Below, piece by piece: positions 11,400 through 62,639 of a stretch of DNA of 64,000 nucleotides (within the stretch, counting starts at the first letter, position 1; each line of letters begins with the position of its first letter). The notes below the pieces were generated by a model. The model did no database searches and was not told the DNA's origin. It saw only the letters and a program-made list of their open reading frames with translations. A program made the position numbers and the translations under genes. This DNA is from Pecten maximus (lineage: Eukaryota). The stretch spans positions 28,334,001 through 28,398,000 of the forward strand of contig NC_047021.1 of the NCBI RefSeq assembly GCF_902652985.1. Direction: 5' to 3'.

Positions 11400-12920
11400 C
11401 TTTAGAACTTACATCCAGCGTACAAGGTGAGTGAAACTGGGCCACTTTTCTTTTCAAATCGTTGGATTGTCTAGATACATCAATGCAAACCCACACCATT
11501 TTAGTTTTGAATACACAACAGTTATAGGGAAATCCTTGTCTCTTAAAAGTTGTTGTATTAATGGTTGAATGACAGATAAATATGACCTTTCATTGTCTTT
11601 ATTTGCAGGGCTTTTTGAAAGTTCAATTTGATGTTATTTCTACATAATGAGGATTTGATCAGAACAAAGTCATCGATCAAAAGATTGCATGTGATCAATT
11701 GAATGGTTTTGTTACTAGCAGTTCAAGTCAGTACTAAAACTTTTGCTAAGAATGGATTTTGAAAGATATGCATATTAAATTTATTTCACATGTCTTCACC
11801 CATGTATTAATATGTTTTGACTTTCGTTATGATAAAAATATTGTACATTTTGTAATTTATGTATTTGTGAAAAACACATTTATATATATGAATGAAATCA
11901 GTACTCTGTACATGACAGAAGTTATTCATGTTTGTTCCTTCATAAATTCGATAACCTGTTATACAATGCGAGATATATATAAGGGCCTCTCCCATTAGAG
12001 AGGGATTTGATCCCAGGCATCACGCCATCCTTGATGAAAATATCAGGATTATATATCTCATTACAGATTGATCAATTAATCGTTAGAAACATATTGTTAC
12101 TCCCGATCAGTTGATTGAAAACATCTTAAAATGTATTATTGTATCATATACATGTACATTGTAAATGACATATTAATATAATGGAACTGCTAATTTTGTA
12201 TTTATAAATTGTAAAACTAGAATGACTGTATTAATTAGACCAACCTAGTTACAATCATGTTATAGAAAAAAAAATACAGCATAGCAATCAGACTTAATTT
12301 TTACTTAAATTATGTAATATGTGATATGCAACATGGAAATAAACAACATTGTATTTTACCATATTATTTATATATCATTATCTAACTCCTGATTATAAAT
12401 GAACTATATTACACTGACAGTATTTTGTATATGCGACTATACTCACCACTTGGAATAGCCCAAGTTTTCTCTGGCCCTGTCACCATGTCTGGTGTAGGCC
12501 AGACATGGTGACAGGGCCAGAGAAAACTTGGGCTACACTTGGAAATAGTGCTCTCAGTTTTTGTATTTTCATGAAATCTTGTCGGAATTCTTCGCCCCAA
12601 AGATGAATGCAGTGTTCTTCATCAATAAATATAAATTTAACATTATGCTGGAGCTCCTCCGAACACAACACATTGAATAGATCATTCTGCAGGAAATGCT
12701 CCGGGTGTCCAATCAAAAACGAATGTTTTTGAAGAATAAAGAAACGCCGTTCTTCAAGGTTACCTAACTTTTTATGGAGTTAAGGTTTGTCATACCTGTC
12801 TACCTGCTCGGCATTAATAGAGTTTAGTTGATTTATCAAAATAACAGCAGAGTTTTTAATATTTTTTTACAATTTCAAATATTAAAGATTTCCCATATCC
12901 TGTCGGTATGACATGAGGGA
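11400..12920 (-). pseudogene. Decayed, intron-containing RecQ-like SF2 helicase (possible AcademH-type transposon remnant)
   Basis: Minus-strand fragments: Walker A IPTGYGKSLIFE (~12910-12875), GHPEHF...FIDEEHCIHLWGEEFRQDF...LRALFPS followed by a GTGAGT donor, and a downstream piece DFPITVVYSKLKWCG...VAQFHSP (~11545-11420). Contains stops and frameshifts. Confidence 0.7.
12456..12535. mobile_element. 80-bp hairpin MITE with TAG...CTA termini and a 9-bp TSD
   Basis: Perfect 37-bp arms (TAGCCCAAGTTTTCTCTGGCCCTGTCACCATGTCTGG) around a 6-nt loop; direct repeat CACTTGGAA at 12447-12455 and 12536-12544. Confidence 0.9.
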
Positions 12921-13820: not shown

Positions 13821-15307
13821 ACAAGAGATCCCAGAGGGATCTTGGCGCCCACCATTGAATGATCTTTATAGGTTCCATGTCAGATTGATCTTTTCCCTAC
13901 TTTTCCCTTCCTCTAAGTCTTACTTATCTGTGTAAATTCAGAAACAGCCCTCTAGTACTTTTCAAACAAGGGGAACCTATATACAGAATTTAAGATTTAG
14001 CTATAATGGCTGTCTGTCGGCCATGTAGTTTTCGTATTGGTCCCAATATGCAAAACTAGGCACTGAGGGGAACCTACATATGAAATTTGAAAAAGATCCC
14101 TTCAGTACTTTCACAGAAATAGCGATAACAAACTTTAATTGTCATAATCCAAGATGGCTGCCTGTCAGCCATGTTGTTTTCTGATTAGTCTCAAAATGCA
14201 ATATGCATAACCAGGCACAAAGAGGAACCTGCATATGAAATTTGAGAAAGATCCCTTCAGTACTTTCACAGAAATAGCGATAACAAACTTCAATTGTCAA
14301 AATCCAAGATGGCTGCCTGTCGGCCATTTTGTTTTCCGATTGGTCCCAAAATGCAATATGCATAACTAGGCACCAAAGGGAACCTACATATAAAATTTGA
14401 GAAAGATCCCTTCAGTACTTCCTCAGAAATAGCGTTAACAAACTTCAATTGTCAAAATCCAAGATGGCTGCCTGTCGGCCATGTTTTTTCCGATTGGTCC
14501 CAAAATCAAATATGCATAACTAGGCACCAAAGGGAACCTACATATGAAATTTGAGAAAGATCCCTTCAGTACTTCCTCAGAAATAGCGATAACAAACTCC
14601 AATTGTCAAAATCCAAGATGGCTGCCTGTCGGCCATGTTGTTTTCTGATCGGTCCCAAAATGCAATATGCATATCTAGGCACCAAGAGGAACCTACATAT
14701 GAAATTTGAGAAAGATCCCTTCAATACTTTCTCAGAAATAGCGTTAACAAACTCCAATTGTCAAAATCCAAGATGGCTGCCTGTCGGCCATGTTGTTTTC
14801 TGATCGGGCCCAAAATGCAATATGCATAACTAGGCACCAAGGGGAACCTACATATGAAATTTGAGAAAGATCCCTTCAATACTTTCTCAGAAATAGAGAT
14901 AACAAACTTCAATTGTCAAAATCCAAGATGGCTGCCTGTCGGCCATGTTGTTTTCCGATCGGTCCCAAAATGCAATATGCACAACTAGGCACCAAGGGGA
15001 ACCTACATATGAAATTTGAGAAAGATCCCTTCAAGACTTTCTCAGAAATAGAGATAACAAACTTCAATTGTCAAAATCCAAGATGGCTGCCTGTCGGCCA
15101 TGTTGTTTTCCGATCGGTCCCAAAATGCAATATGCACAACTAGGCACCAAGGGGAACCTACATATGAAATTTGAGAAAGATCCCATCAGCACTTTCTCAG
15201 AAATAGCGATAACAAGAATTGTTTACGGACGGAGGGACGGACGGACGGACCACGGACCACGGACGCAGGGCGATTTGAATAGCCCACCATCTGATGATGG
15301 TGGGCTA
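13821..15307 (-). mobile_element. Non-autonomous Helentron (HINE), family B, with an internal 155-bp satellite array
   Basis: Minus strand: T-run, inverted repeat AGCCCACCATCATCAGATGGTGGGCT, (GTCC)n microsatellite, about 8 tandem 155-bp units (~13935-15215), subTIR GGTGGGCG, 3' hairpin AGATCCCTCTGGGATCT, ending in a T-run. Confidence 0.85.
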
Positions 15308-15847
15308 AAAAACCAGTCAGAAATACCTATATATATATTCAATATATATAGGTATTTCTGACTATTTTTTCGACAAAGCCGTCTAATTTTGTTTTGGCCC
15401 AGGATATGACGCGACAGGTGGCGTTGTTGGTCAAGATGAAGTATGTGATTGGTCAATGTAGCGGTCAATGGAAAATGCAGATATACAGTTAAAAACGAAA
15501 CAAAGTTAAAGAGACAACATTCATTTTGTATTTTTTATCATATTATTGGGTATATCTTTTAAAAAAATAACCTTCTGAACAATAACCATTCGAATTTGAT
15601 GATGTATGTACATAAAAACATCAATTATTAAAAAGTTATCATTCTGAATATGCAACTTTTGTGACATATACGATAAACGCATGCGCTTATGGCTTCCAAT
15701 GTGAATTGACTGCGGTTGAAAACGATAACAGCTTCCGCAATAAATGAAGAGAATAATAGGAAAATGGGTCAAACACAATCCTGGAATTAAACTTGGGAAG
15801 CAGTACAATAGATTGTAACAGTTCAAACATGAAAACAGCAGTAAAGG

Positions 15848-16347
15848 NNNNNNNNNNNNNNNNNNNNNNNNNNNNNNNNNNNNNNNNNNNNNNNNNNNNN
15901 NNNNNNNNNNNNNNNNNNNNNNNNNNNNNNNNNNNNNNNNNNNNNNNNNNNNNNNNNNNNNNNNNNNNNNNNNNNNNNNNNNNNNNNNNNNNNNNNNNNN
16001 NNNNNNNNNNNNNNNNNNNNNNNNNNNNNNNNNNNNNNNNNNNNNNNNNNNNNNNNNNNNNNNNNNNNNNNNNNNNNNNNNNNNNNNNNNNNNNNNNNNN
16101 NNNNNNNNNNNNNNNNNNNNNNNNNNNNNNNNNNNNNNNNNNNNNNNNNNNNNNNNNNNNNNNNNNNNNNNNNNNNNNNNNNNNNNNNNNNNNNNNNNNN
16201 NNNNNNNNNNNNNNNNNNNNNNNNNNNNNNNNNNNNNNNNNNNNNNNNNNNNNNNNNNNNNNNNNNNNNNNNNNNNNNNNNNNNNNNNNNNNNNNNNNNN
16301 NNNNNNNNNNNNNNNNNNNNNNNNNNNNNNNNNNNNNNNNNNNNNNN
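15848..16347. other. Assembly gap (500 N)
   Basis: Run of N. Confidence 1.
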
Positions 16348-27599: not shown

Positions 27600-29814
27600 T
27601 TTATTTTGAGGACATATTGAAACAATACAAGTCTCATTTGTATCATTACCATTAATTTCATTCGACGAACATTATTCATTTTGATTCGCGATGGTGATTT
27701 ATATTTATATAATTCTCTAGGTTCAAAATCACAAAATCCTCAAAATAGCCAAGCTAGTTTTTATTTCTCCCTCTGAAAAGCAAACAACAAATCCAACATG
27801 AAATTAAATTAAGTGTTCACTATAAAGCACACTAATATATAAACTGCAGTACTGATTTTATAGAATTAACACTTGATTTTGTAATGATTGTCATTCTTAG
27901 TTATTGTCATACTGTACCGTTATTATGTGTTTGTGATGTGCGAGAAAATCTAAATGGATGCCTAACTTGTCTTTAATTATATGTTCTATACGCTGTTGTT
28001 TTCTAAAATAAAGGTACTGTATGGTATTCTACAATATACTGTATTGTTTTCAGAACTGTATGTAATCTGTTGTGTTTAGAAATTCTTAAATATATGAACT
28101 GTATAGTTTTTTTCTGTATGTTCTTTTTTTGTTTTCTTCATATAATCTATTGTCAATTGTATGTACTGTATTCTTTTTCTTTAAGTCTATTAAGTATATA
28201 ATTTATTGTTTTGGTCTAATGCTGTTCAACATACATTCATAAGGACGGTGATTTTATGATAGTTGTATCGTATGCCGTTCACTTCGCTCTTAGGAGTACC
28301 AGAATTTATTATGAAATAAAACGTTCTCCGTATTATAATGACATATATTAATATGTAACGGTTTCTATTAGTTTTATTTGCATTAATAAACTTTTATACG
28401 CTGACATGATCTATTTTATGGATACTGGATCATGTGTTGTCAGCAAATTGATTTTTTTTATTGATAAATGTATTATTAAAAAATCGAAATCCCTACTCAT
28501 TACACGACGTCCCCAGTATACAAATATTTATGTCTCACATGAGTGAATTTGATTATAATAAATTCGTAAAACAGCTTCATTAAATCCTGACAATATGACA
28601 TGAATTTCGGATTATTTTTTTATAAGATATCCGTGTTGATATTGTTTCTTATCACAGTCGGTTTACAATGAATTGGTGTTTAAAGCAAATAGCTGAATCA
28701 GCTGCAAAGGTTATATAACATGTACGAAGAAGTCAGTCAAATGATCCACACATATATTTCACCTGTGTATGTAGACTTGTATAGAAGACGGTGGTAACAG
28801 AAATTATCAACTGTAAACATAACCTACACGACATGTTAACATAATTATAGTTCTAAACTCAAAACCGATGAGACGAATAGGAAATTTGATCCAAAAAAAA
28901 TTAAAAGCATTGAAAATTGTTCTAGGCGATAAGCTTCATGGACAACATTCGCCATGTAAATTTGGATCAAATATTGGCATCATAATAAGTCTCAAAATGT
29001 CAACAAAACTACATTTATGTGTACTTTAGGAATATGAACAAGCATCGAACACGCAGCACTATATATATCACCCAAGGAGTACAGAATTCAATACCATTCG
29101 GAAACAAAAAACATGCTACGAGAGTCGTAAATGCATGTTTGCTTAATTTGCGTCTTTGAAGGGCAGGTAAGCGTCAAGAATTAGACGTCGAGACTACAAT
29201 TGGATTTAATCTACAACTATGCTTCATTTGTCAGACAGAAACTATGGATTTTTTTCATATTTATGTAATTATCACTTCAGCGTTAGTAATTGAATAGCGC
29301 ATTTGACCTTCTACAATAATAATAATGTATGTAAAATGAGCATAGGAGCCTTCAGCACATCAAGATACACTATGAAGAATTTCTACTTATCAACACTCCG
29401 GTCAAGTATGGTATACCTGGTCGTCGTGTTATTCGATAAGGACTTTCTAATCAAGAACCTATTTTTAATGTGTTATCTTTAACTCGTTGTATTTTCCCAT
29501 TCGATATTATTTAACAACATATTCCTGAAAATTAGAAATTACTTGAACATGTTTTAAACCAATGTCAAATCCACTTTCGGATAATTGTCCCAAATTGATA
29601 AAACTTGTTCATGAAAGGTTAGTAATTCCCAGAAAAAGATTCAACGAGTAAACTTTTAATAGCGTGGGTATTCAATTTGCAATTACCGCGCGGCCATTAG
29701 GCTATGGTTGCTTTCTTACCACGATCCATGGTATATAGATGATGTGAATGAGCCAACCTAGGTTAATGACTTCATAGGCAAACTTTTGCAATACGAATTC
29801 TGATTCTCTGAAAC

Positions 29815-29846
29815 CAGAGACCTATATACTAGTATATAGGTCTCTG
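29815..29846. mobile_element. 32-bp perfect palindromic insertion with 7-bp TSD (copy 1)
   Basis: CAGAGACCTATATACTAGTATATAGGTCTCTG flanked by CTGAAAC at 29808-29814 and 29847-29853. Confidence 0.85.
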
Positions 29847-31077
29847 CTGAAACTCATTAAATTCAATTTTAAACAATGTGTGTTATTTAAACAAATTATG
29901 AATCCCCTACAGTATTAACGAAAAAAACGCAAGCTTAATTTACGCACAACTTCCAAAAGCATAAGTTCGGAACAATTTTGACGCGCAAGGAAACCATACG
30001 CGCAGATACGTACATTGTATATCACAGCTCGGGGATATATACGCCAACTCGCAAGTAATTATCGGCGCGTGACGATTAGAAGGCCAGAAAAAGCACGGAC
30101 ACCGCCGGTACCTGTGATGCTGTGACAGAGGTGACGAGCGAGTGGACCGTAATATCACACCTTGTTATTGTTTAGCGGTATACTTACCCACTCGCAGTCG
30201 TGTACACGTAATTGTCCCAACATGGTTGTAATCATGTGTTTAAGGCTTGTTTGAAGAGAAGAGGATTCAGTCACTTCATGATAATTTAACAAAACACATA
30301 CCCGTTTTTCATTGTGAGATGTTTACATGGTAGTTTAACCAGTTTTAAGTGTTTGTTATAGTTCCTCATGATTGACCAAACTGTCTTTTTCGTGTTACAC
30401 TAGCAAATGTGTTGAATTAACTTTAAACATGTGCTTCCAGGAGAGTGAGGTCATGGGTTATAAGACACTTCAACCATTTGATATTTAGCTAACCATCAAG
30501 GGTAATTTAGTGCCCTGTATCGTATAAATATTTCGATTCATACATTTCATTGGATTATTTTCTCGTATGCCAATTGTTAATAAATTTGTTGCGAAGCATT
30601 TTATATAATTTCGCTGACAATCTTTCTCAAGCAGTTAATCGTCGGTAAGCCACGAGGCCATGACATGTATATAAAAAAAGCAGTCAGTATCTGGGTTTTA
30701 TACAACGGGAGAGAAAGTCGATGTCACCACGCAATTTGTCATAACGGCGCAATTTGTAATAAAAAAATCAAAGTCTTTTTTTTTACCAGGTCAGTTGTCA
30801 TCAGATGGAAAGCTTATCTTCACTTGATATATGTTTCAACCTTATTCTATTGGGAAAATACTCATTTATTACTAATAGTGACATTTGAAAAGTTATTACT
30901 AATTGCGTGGTGACAAGTCATGTATGTTTATTTGAATATAAATTTGTGAATAAAATGGCACATTATCAACAAATTGTTGATGTCGTGTTCTTTTTCATTT
31001 GAATAAGTAAGAAATGGTAAGCACGTAACTATACATTTATTGGTGATCGGTCGATTACTAGATCGTGCAAAACATAC

Positions 31078-60113: not shown

Positions 60114-60598
60114 AAATGGCGGCATTCAAAACACCTTTCAAACTTACCTGTAATGTTACCTGGTGCAAATAGTATTTATGGATATATCGTTATTTATTTC
60201 GCTATCATCGTTATGATGCCGTCATTTCATAAGCAGTGACTGATTCTATTCGATCTATACAAATCAAGAACTAATAAATGAATCGTGAATCATACAATGA
60301 CCGATTTTTAATGCTACACCTGTGTAAATGAGTTACATAGCATTCTGCAGGGTTTCTCACCTGGGGTATTTGAACAAGTGTATATCGGTCTTATATCGCC
60401 TTATTTCCTTATAAAATCATTCCAAAATAAAGACTTACTTACCTATATACGCATTTAAGCACGAAGATTTTCTGGAAAAAGTCTAATTTGACGCGTAGCG
60501 CTGATAAAACACTAAAAACATGTGCTGTGACACGGACACACCATACGCCGCCATCTTGGATTATGATCCGCCAGGTGGCGCTGAATTGGAAAGTGGCC
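60114..60598 (-). repeat. Right TIR (485 bp)
   Basis: Reverse complement of 45851-46335. Confidence 0.95.
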
Positions 60599-60939
60599 AA
60601 TTGTTGAGTTTTTCATTTTATTTTCCTTATAAAACGCTGAAAAGTGATATTAAAACCTCATTTTTTAAATATTATTTATTTAATCGCAACCCGCAATAAG
60701 TCTCCGCTATAAAGTGGAGTCTAATTTTGATTGACACATCAAAGAAACAAGCACGTGCACAGTGCCGCACAGTGATAACTTCAAAGGCAGCGGCGATTTA
60801 CAAAGAAAATTTGCCGTTATATTCCATACATTTCCCTCTCAGGTTGAGTTTTAAAACGTCTTTTAAATACATATTCTGTAATTGTTTTCAAGAAATAAAG
60901 TCGGAAAGCCTCTAATTTTGTCACATAGAAACGTGTACT

Positions 60940-60971
60940 CAGAGACCTATATACTAGTATATAGGTCTCTG
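60940..60971. mobile_element. 32-bp perfect palindromic insertion with 7-bp TSD (copy 2)
   Basis: Identical to 29815-29846, flanked by GTGTACT at 60933-60939 and 60972-60978. Confidence 0.85.
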
Positions 60972-62639
60972 GTGTACTGAAGTTTATTTAGTGACCGGAG
61001 ATGTGCCGTTTACTGGTCCGTCTGCGGGTAAGCCTCTTTAACTTAAACAATTTCATGTTCACAAAAGAATTCATTGCACCATGTAGGGAGATATTTTAAT
61101 GATAAATGTAAATGTAATATCTATATGTTTCATTGAATTTCTCAGATTTTAAGTTGCTTCACCCTTATCAAAAGATATACTTACAGATTAATTAAGATGT
61201 TTTAAAACCATTTTTATCTATTTCATTATTAGGAACAAATCAGTTTATAAAATATAGCAGACGCGCAGATCAACAATCTAAAGCCTAGCTCGCCTAATTA
61301 CATGAATTATGACAACTTAATTACAGTGTAATTGCATTCGACGACAACAATTTGAAAATACAATAGAGGCGTCACTTCGGTAAGTTTGGTAATTTGTGAT
61401 TTGATGCGTTAAGATTTCGAAGTTCTCCTTCCAATTTAACAAGGCCCCAAAGCGATGATACTGGAATTTCTGTACATGTAATCTGGTAAAATCCAAAAGT
61501 TTTTTTGTTTGTTTTGTTTTTCAATCTGAACAAATAATCAATAAAAGGAATATCGAATATACACAAAGTTCGACCATAAAGAAATGAATGATATCTTAGC
61601 AAGCAAATTACTTACGTTTAAGTGACTTTCTTCTGTAGAGTTTGCTATGATAGAGTGACAACCAATAGACAACCAATATTATTGCTTCCAGCTTCAAGAA
61701 TGAAAAACAAAAAGATTGCGGTAGAACCGAGGTGGAATAAAATCCTCTTAAGTCAAATTCAATGGCGTCGGGATATTAGGGCATTCGAGACGGGAGTTCC
61801 AGTTGCACAAACTGTATACGTGAAATAGCATTGTCCCGCCCATCGGTTCCTATTGGTTATTTGAGGAACAGTTATAAGATATGAGAGAGAGAGAGAGCGG
61901 TACGTGAGAGGTTGTGCTCGATACACTTAAAAATCAAACTAATTCTACATGTAGTTTAAATTGTGTATCAGGACGGGACAATCCAATGGTTGGAGAACAG
62001 GAAATATCTAAACTGTTCATTAACGAATGCCGGGACCAGAAATGTTAATTTAGTGGTTTTACTGTGGCGTACACACAGGAAGCAAAGACAAAACATTTGT
62101 GAACGTTCTGTGGTTCAAGTATAAAGTTATTTCGGTCATTAGAGCAGTATAAGAAAAAGAACGAACTACTGTAAATTTACTCATTTTAGCGTATTTTCAA
62201 ATTTTAACTGGTCAGTGCAATTATTTTAATTGGCGCACCCCCATCATTTGCTATATAAACAGTCTGTATAGCTAAATGATAATTCCGAGCGATGCTTCCA
62301 GCACAAAGCCCCACTGAAATAAGACAACCGTTAACTTATTTTCATTTACAGTATGATTTAGGTTTGATCTGAAGTCGGCCTATTGCAGCATTGAAATAGT
62401 CATCGGTCATAATTAGGGTATTAATGTATTCACAAGGTGAGACCTCAGCATTCTTAGTTATCTACAGATCGTTAAAGAGACAGAGCTTACAGAAAATGGT
62501 TTCCGTCTGGAATCCGTCCTATTGTAATCGTGACTAAGTCCATCCTTTTTTGTGTGTGTGTGTGTGGATTTGTTCCAGTACTAGTGTTTCAACAAATAAC
62601 ATAGGCATCTCTTTATTATTATGTAGACTTCTTATACCG

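What the first reader, a model, noticed from the sequence alone, without database searches (positions are those of the whole stretch)
29808..29853. A 32-bp perfect palindrome that behaves like a mobile element (second copy at 60940-60971)
Seen: the identical 32-mer CAGAGACCTATATACTAGTATATAGGTCTCTG occurs twice, 31 kb apart, each with its own 7-bp direct repeat (CTGAAAC; GTGTACT). Established: CA termini with 7-8-bp TSDs are typical of the P superfamily, and P excision can leave about 16 nt of each end. Inference: this is either an extremely small MITE or a stereotyped excision footprint (16+16 nt of TIR joined head to head) marking former insertion sites of a P-like element. Two copies in 64 kb suggests a high genomic copy number.
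Basis: partly seen in the sequence, partly recalled or inferred. Interest (0 to 1): 0.7.

Follow-up and report, generated by a model that had tools for sequence, protein, structure and literature searches.

The report
Excision scars of P-type transposons
This 32-base palindrome is the commonest of about a thousand tiny end-to-end remnants of a P-element-like jumping gene in this genome, likely the repair scars left when copies were cut out, and the scar lengths of three sister families suggest cuts 17, 18 and 19 bases inside the element's ends, likely set by a short inner motif.

Summary
The 32-mer has 183 exact copies genome-wide, and 14 of 15 fetched copies have exact 7-bp target duplications. 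It is one member of a continuous series of about 1,000 end-to-end joins, 20-62 bp long. Its arms match the outer ends of 4-5-kb non-autonomous elements with 31-bp inverted repeats. These share ends and internal DNA with an element encoding a P-type transposase (split RNase H plus GTP-binding domain; no THAP found). Arms stop at 17 nt. Annealing the terminal TA of two 17-nt overhangs predicts 32-, 29-, 27- and 25-mers, and all four are common. Drosophila P excision gives the same 15+TA+15 join. So this is most likely an excision scar, not a self-mobile MITE. Two sister families leave about 750 more scars, capped at 18 and 19 nt. All three caps fall just before a G[AG]GA[CT]T motif. That points to a nick set by sequence rather than a fixed 17 nt, which is inferred and not assayed. 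Two copies in 64 kb is a local cluster: the genome average is 1 per 5 Mb. The scan reported similar scars earlier in other genomes (skate, abalone, another shellfish).

The parts
29808..29814 (.). left copy of 7-bp target-site duplication, scar 1
29815..29846 (.). scar 1: outer 17 nt of two element ends joined through a shared central TA (15+2+15), perfect palindrome
   Evidence: arm matches the first 18 nt of the 31-bp TIR of long elements; 17-nt reading
29847..29853 (.). right copy of 7-bp target-site duplication, scar 1
29640..29990 (.). dispersed repeat that hosts scar 1 (limits approximate: the query used). Of 11 paralogous loci aligned, 10 lack a scar; one (L292) carries an independent 29-nt scar with its own 7-bp duplication
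   Evidence: a contig of run X12 spans the site without the scar
60933..60939 (.). left copy of 7-bp target-site duplication, scar 2
60940..60971 (.). scar 2, identical 32-mer
60972..60978 (.). right copy of 7-bp target-site duplication, scar 2
60620..61041 (.). very high-copy repeat that hosts scar 2 (left limit = start of the stretch laid); empty copies are exactly 39 bp shorter
   Evidence: summed depth 10^4-10^5; joint 60932-60972 skips 39, both = 7

Best explanation
The 32-mer is the outer ends of a P-like DNA transposon joined head to head between the two copies of its 7-bp target duplication, and is likely the repair scar left after the element was cut out. Shown: the parent elements, their 31-bp inverted repeats, their 7-bp duplications, a related P-type transposase gene, and a scar series whose arms stop at 17 nt. 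Inferred: (1) the transposase cuts one strand at the element end and nicks the other 17 nt inside the repeat, leaving a 17-nt 3' overhang ending in TA on each side of the break; (2) the host joins the overhangs by microhomology end joining, probably polymerase-theta type. Pairing the two terminal TAs gives the 32-mer with no flap to trim, which would make it the commonest product. Pairing one terminal TA with inner TAs gives 29, 27 and 25 nt, and blunt or filled joins give 34 nt and longer; (3) the scar lacks repeat positions 18-31 and all subterminal DNA, so it is likely a dead end; (4) the nick is likely set by the inner G[AG]GA[CT]T motif, because sister families with 18 and 19 nt before that motif leave scars capped at 18 and 19 nt.
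For: Parents: 225 full element ends; 31-bp TIRs; 18 of 19 long or internally deleted elements checked have exact 7-bp duplications. Transposase link: the non-autonomous elements keep the start of a transposase ORF, 84% identical over 152 nt to L139. The L139 element shares 80-92% internal DNA with them and ends in the same TIR plus one base. Its 996-aa ORF hits PF21787, PF21788 and PF21789 and PDB 6P5A at E 9.5e-15. Series: 381 joins of 33-60 nt, 458 of 16-31 nt (control 9), 183 exact 32-mers. In 102 fetched family-A joins, 30 of 74 arms followed by inserted bases end at nt 17, 1 at 16, 4 at 18 and none later. A 17-nt overhang reproduces 42 of 102 joins exactly; 16 nt gives 22, 18 nt gives 23, 19 and 20 nt give 0. 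Genome-wide, 241 short joins have a full 17-nt arm, and 68 of the first 100 listed are exactly the predicted 29- (41), 27- (17) or 25-mers (10) (counted by hand). Sister family B: 0 of 78 arms exceed 18 nt. Sister family C: 1 of 100 arms exceeds 19 nt, and 6 of 50 joins are blunt 19+19. Drosophila: 17-nt 3' tails and a 15+(TA)+15 join in 5 isolates (PMC2895639 Table 1).
Against: No biochemistry, so the cut depth is read from scars only. In family A, 10 of 204 arms need more than 17 TIR bases. Eight keep G18 within a CTAG core and could come from 32-mers by later slippage or extra synthesis; two keep 20-21 nt. The fetched sample is the first hits of three size-class searches, not random, and 24 variant-arm joins plus nested joins were set aside before counting. 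No site was seen in both the full-element and the scar state. No intact transposase element with the exact family-A TIRs was found among the first 100 of 225 ends listed; the C18 element belongs to an older subfamily and its left end is cut off by the contig start. In family B the best inner motif match is after nt 16 (score 5) rather than 18 (4.5), and arms peak at 14 (24), 16 (9) and 18 (9) of 56.
Confidence: 0.88

Rival explanations
1. The 32-mer first arose as a scar but is now itself mobilised as a minimal MITE.
For: 183 identical copies, most of those fetched with perfect 7-bp duplications; two copies in one window.
Against: Non-palindromic joins have the same kind of duplications (88 of 122 exact 7-bp, 7 exact 8-bp). 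The 29-mer is nearly as common: 41 of the first 100 of 241 hits, roughly 100 genome-wide. Each sister family has its own favoured joins, such as 38- and 27-mers in family C. The 32-mer lacks TIR positions 18-31, and the fly enzyme's HTH domain contacts the inner half of the TIR (PMC7776569 section 8).
Confidence: 0.07
2. The joins are transposase-independent deletions between the inverted repeats (hairpin or replication slippage), or extreme aborted gap-repair products.
For: Internally deleted elements of 120 bp to 2.6 kb exist; many short joins show microhomology; 2 arms reach 20-21 nt.
Against: Such deletions should leave arms anywhere up to 31 nt, yet arms stop sharply at 17, 18 and 19 nt by family, with blunt 19+19 joins and inserted bases after the cap. 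Internally deleted copies also break at 17-18 nt on the damaged side (L055, L058, L052), as expected when gap repair starts from a 17-nt tail.
Confidence: 0.05

Closest known systems
Drosophila melanogaster P element and its donor-site end-joining products (PMC7776569: passages and section 8 read; PMC2895639: passages and section 7 with Table 1 read)
   Same: 31-bp TIRs starting CA; split RNase H with GTP-binding insertion; scars made of up to 17 nt of each end between target duplications, including a 32-bp 15+TA+15 palindrome, microhomology joins and insertions.
   Different: 7-bp rather than 8-bp duplication; no THAP domain found; elements 10-17 kb with a second convergent gene; about 1,750 scars standing in one natural genome assembly; sister families capped at 18 and 19 nt.
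Galileo (P superfamily; PMC4168063, passages read)
   Same: Mostly 7-bp, sometimes 8-bp duplications; palindromic target preference with T at position 2 and A at position 6 (here 0.68 each; Galileo GTATTAC); D(2)H motif.
   Different: Galileo has long foldback TIRs and a THAP domain; the word 'footprint' does not occur in that paper.
Zebrafish Pdre2 / THAP9 (PMC10983969, passages read)
   Same: Non-fly P-superfamily transposon.
   Different: 13-bp TIR, 8-bp duplication; the passages read give no cut depth for it and describe larger flanking deletions.

Membership tests
P superfamily (parent element) | [quoted passage not shown] | tested here: met
   PF21787, PF21788, PF21789 above cut-off in L139, L134, L141; only PDB hit 6P5A/6PE2
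P superfamily (parent element) | DDE triad, D(2)H motif and GTP-contact motifs | tested here: met
   FDE, CDGA, DVPH, MKVxLAAQVxS, FDxxN and QDPLE all found in L139 and aligned to the fly enzyme; one motif pattern each missed in L134 and L141
P superfamily (parent element) | N-terminal THAP (C2CH) DNA-binding domain | tested here: not met
   No THAP hit in the three long ORFs or in 48 further frames of 55-80 aa or more; no credible C..HF motif upstream of the three ORFs. Very short exons are not excluded. So filed as P-like (P-type catalytic core), not as a canonical P element.
P superfamily (parent element) | TIRs beginning CA with 7-8-bp target duplication | tested here: met
   31-bp TIR; 18 of 19 family-A elements with exact 7-bp duplication, plus one B and one C element; 7 of 122 scars with 8 bp
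P superfamily (parent element) | Long staggered donor cleavage (17 nt in the fly) | tested here: inconclusive
   Inferred from arm caps at 17, 18 and 19 nt; not assayed
P superfamily (parent element) | GTP requirement | not testable with these tools
   motifs present only
MITE (for the 32-mer) | Full TIRs or subterminal binding sites allowing mobilisation in trans | tested here: not met
   Holds only 18 of the 31 TIR positions and no subterminal DNA
MITE (for the 32-mer) | Uniform size family amplified from one founder | tested here: not met
   Continuous 20-62-nt series; exact 32-mers are 183 of about 1,022 family-A joins
Excision footprint | Same site seen with the full element and with the scar | tested here: inconclusive
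   Scar-free forms seen; a full-element allele at either window site was not seen

The most novel reading that the evidence does not exclude
A THAP-less, two-gene clade of P transposons places its inner nick by sequence, at an inner copy of its terminal GAGAC motif that lets the freed strand re-pair, rather than at a fixed 17 nt. Overhang length would then evolve freely (17, 18 and 19 nt in three co-resident families, and unequal at the two ends of an older subfamily). The second, C2H2-finger gene may supply the missing DNA-binding function. The roughly 1,750 scars form a natural read-out of both the cut and germline end joining.
Probability: 0.45. Interest if true: 0.7.

Novelty: new variant of a known kind. 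Interest (0 to 1): 0.5.

Why it matters
The 17-nt staggered cut is described as unusual and has been measured for the fly enzyme (PMC7776569). I found no paper giving it for non-fly P relatives or describing genome-wide natural P scars (searches; subscription papers and Repbase reports are outside the library). Scars let one read cut depth for unassayed transposases from sequence alone. Three families in one genome give a directly testable rule for where the nick is placed. About a thousand repairs of one defined break also describe germline end joining in a non-model animal. Practically, such palindromes should be annotated as footprints, not as MITEs.

Tried and rejected
Tiny-MITE reading: disfavoured (see rivals). 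16+16 blunt and 18-nt CTAG-overlap readings fit the 32-mer alone but not the 29/27-mers or the arm-length peak. Larger-than-usual family-A elements (L094-L113) held nested unrelated elements, not the partner transposase. The 20 transposase loci scanned for family-A ends within 5 kb gave none, because the elements are longer; the ends were found after extension. The 3-mismatch hits at window 44432 and 54433 are at chance level (0.63 expected); I looked only at 44432. No RNA holder on record was listed for the window stretch, so expression was not tested. The primary structure and cleavage papers (PMC6948148, PMC316450) were not held, so the pairing register in the fly complex was not checked. 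The ESM Atlas gave no result for the second gene or the transposase N-terminal part. The search for THAP-less two-ORF P elements returned 0 papers. PMC10294476 (bivalve TEs) was seen only as a search listing. No supplements were read; supplements or Repbase entries may already describe these families. No structure or complex prediction was run.

Full report
Observation. Both copies and both 7-bp duplications are as described. A scan of the window for short inverted arms with 7-9-bp duplications lists both, among 19 rows that are mostly tandem-repeat by-products; ten shuffles gave 0-4 rows. The genome (G000, 918 Mb) holds 183 exact copies and the control gives 0. Of 15 fetched copies, 14 have an exact 7-bp duplication. 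Both window copies sit inside repeats. Other copies of the repeat around scar 2 are exactly 39 bp shorter in contigs of runs X2, X6 and X9; these are paralogues, not necessarily the same locus. For scar 1, one contig of run X12 spans 29300-30128. From its length and gap counts I infer that it lacks 29 letters across the scar. That is 10 letters longer than a clean empty site, and paralogues also carry about 10-12 extra letters there, so the window allele probably has a small flanking deletion as well.

Parent elements. Extending the half-palindrome by one base revealed paired ends 4-5 kb apart. These are one family (mostly 90-99% identical) with 31-bp TIRs. There are 225 such ends, and 18 of 19 elements checked have exact 7-bp duplications. 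They are non-autonomous: they carry a LINE reverse-transcriptase fragment and a stub of a transposase start. That stub leads to an element at C18:1-16864 with a 996-aa open frame that hits the three P-transposase Pfam domains and the fly P transposase structure. It shares 80-92% internal DNA with the non-autonomous family and ends in the same TIR with one extra base. Its left end is cut off by the contig start. A decayed relative on C2 shows both ends. These belong to an older subfamily; a transposase copy with the exact modern TIRs was not found among the first 100 of 225 ends listed. Two complete sister elements were delimited: B (C5:3888865-3902535) and C (C4:52489941-52500252), each with an exact 7-bp duplication and an open transposase frame. 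No THAP domain was found in any of the three. Each has a second, convergent gene at its far end: a C2H2-finger exon plus a roughly 370-aa exon with no credible Pfam match, 51% identical between A and C.

The scar series. Besides the 32-mer there are 381 joins of 33-60 nt and 458 of 16-31 nt (control 9), about 1,022 in all. Nested hits may be counted twice and imperfect 32-mers are missed. I fetched the 50 long joins and 46 of the 50 short joins listed, plus 15 32-mers and incidental ones: 122 joins, of which 88 have an exact 7-bp duplication, 15 have one mismatch and 7 have an exact 8-bp duplication. After setting aside 24 variant-arm joins and nested joins, 102 remained in the larger pool. 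Arms followed by inserted bases end at nt 17 in 30 of 74 cases, at 16 in 1, at 18 in 4, and never later. A 17-nt 3' overhang ends in TA and holds four TA steps, so pairing the terminal TA predicts 32, 29, 27 and 25 nt, plus a blunt 34. This reproduces 42 of 102 joins exactly, against 22 for 16 nt, 23 for 18 nt and 0 for 19 or 20 nt. Genome-wide, 241 short joins keep a whole 17-nt arm; of the first 100 listed, 41 are the 29-mer, 17 the 27-mer and 10 the 25-mer (hand count). Against the reading: 10 of 204 arms need more than 17 TIR bases (eight keep G18 in a CTAG core, two reach 20-21), and the sample is not random. Half-repaired elements point the same way: internally deleted copies break at 17-18 nt, and some long copies have a duplicated outer arm.

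Comparison with the fly. P transposase leaves 17-nt 3' tails on the donor. In Rad51-deficient flies the repair products include a 15+(TA)+15 join (5 isolates), other microhomology joins and insertions after nt 17 (PMC2895639, section 7 and Table 1 read; PMC7776569 passages). The geometry here is the same. The repair pathway (polymerase-theta-type end joining) is inferred from that likeness, not tested.

Sister families. B and C together give 745 joins; C gives 213 with a looser anchor. In 39 fetched B joins no arm of 78 exceeds 18 nt. In 50 C joins (all of those listed) 1 arm of 100 exceeds 19 nt, 11 of 48 free arms end at 19, and 6 joins are blunt 19+19. In long ends, a G[AG]GA[CT]T motif starts after nt 17 (A), 18 (B) and 19 (C), exactly at each cap. 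That motif resembles TIR positions 3-8: 6 of 6 in C, and 3-4 matches plus 2-3 wobble-compatible positions in A. In B the best match is after nt 16, with 18 second, and B arms also peak at 14 and 16, so B is the weakest case. The review of the fly structure says the transferred strand loops out, that nucleotides -14 to -18 are disordered, that the strand pairs back with the 5' part of the non-transferred strand, and that the HTH binds the inner TIR (section 8 read). This makes a motif-set nick with a variable spacer plausible. I could not read the primary paper to check the register. A further 225 hits carry a variant arm; nearly all of the 30 fetched are scars rather than long-element ends. 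Their partner arm often runs to 19 nt (a run of three A in 10 of 28), which fits the older subfamily with unequal ends, but this is tentative.

Verdict. Most likely an excision scar of a P-like element (0.88). Scars of this kind are known from fly experiments. The natural genome-wide archive, the three cut depths and the THAP-less two-gene parent were not found in my searches, which do not cover subscription journals or Repbase. Earlier notes of this scan report like scars in other genomes; they are unchecked and not counted as support. My reading, including the 17/18/19 caps, was formed before that look-up. One note prompted the inner-repeat test.

Noticed in passing
G000 C18:1-16864, C5:3888865-3902535, C4:52489941-52500252 (L139/L164/L165, L134/L168/L169, L141/L166): P-type transposase elements of 10-17 kb with no THAP found and a second convergent gene (C2H2-finger exon plus ~370-aa exon of unknown family, 51% identical between two families).
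   Followed up: partly
L146, L147, L149, L150, L151 (G000 C15, C269, C1, C5, C3762): A second, distant group of P-like transposase frames lies beside long frames with Pif1-helicase and/or PHD-finger features (Pfam-checked for L147 and L149 only), some inside long inverted repeats of 6-8 kb span (L145, L146, L150); possibly a helicase-carrying P-like lineage.
   Followed up: partly
L292 (G000 C11:22237517): An independent 29-nt scar with its own 7-bp duplication sits within a few bases of the same position in a paralogue of the repeat that hosts window scar 1: a repeated target hot spot.
   Followed up: partly
L247, L250, L252, L267, L269: One scar was copied with its flanks to at least five places, so some scars were spread afterwards by another repeat and counts overstate independent events.
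   Followed up: no
window 12456-12535: 80-bp near-perfect hairpin (37-bp arms) with an exact 9-bp duplication; a 28-bp hairpin with the same first 7 bases lies at 15280-15307.
   Followed up: no
window 45847-46335 and 60114-60602: 489-bp stretch present twice, 100% identical, in inverted orientation 13.8 kb apart.
   Followed up: no
window 15315-15367: AT-rich hairpin matching the centre of a ~130-bp palindromic insert found inside some non-autonomous elements (L048, L050, L051).
   Followed up: partly
L094 3600-8200: A nested element with long inverted ends and a Ulp1-protease frame sits inside one non-autonomous copy.
   Followed up: partly
L052 (G000 C2:51183065-51190148): Two family-A elements abut across a single 7-bp spacer; the second keeps only 18 nt of its left end: likely local hopping with aborted repair.
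   Followed up: no
window 15848-16347: Run of N (gap or withheld stretch).
   Followed up: no
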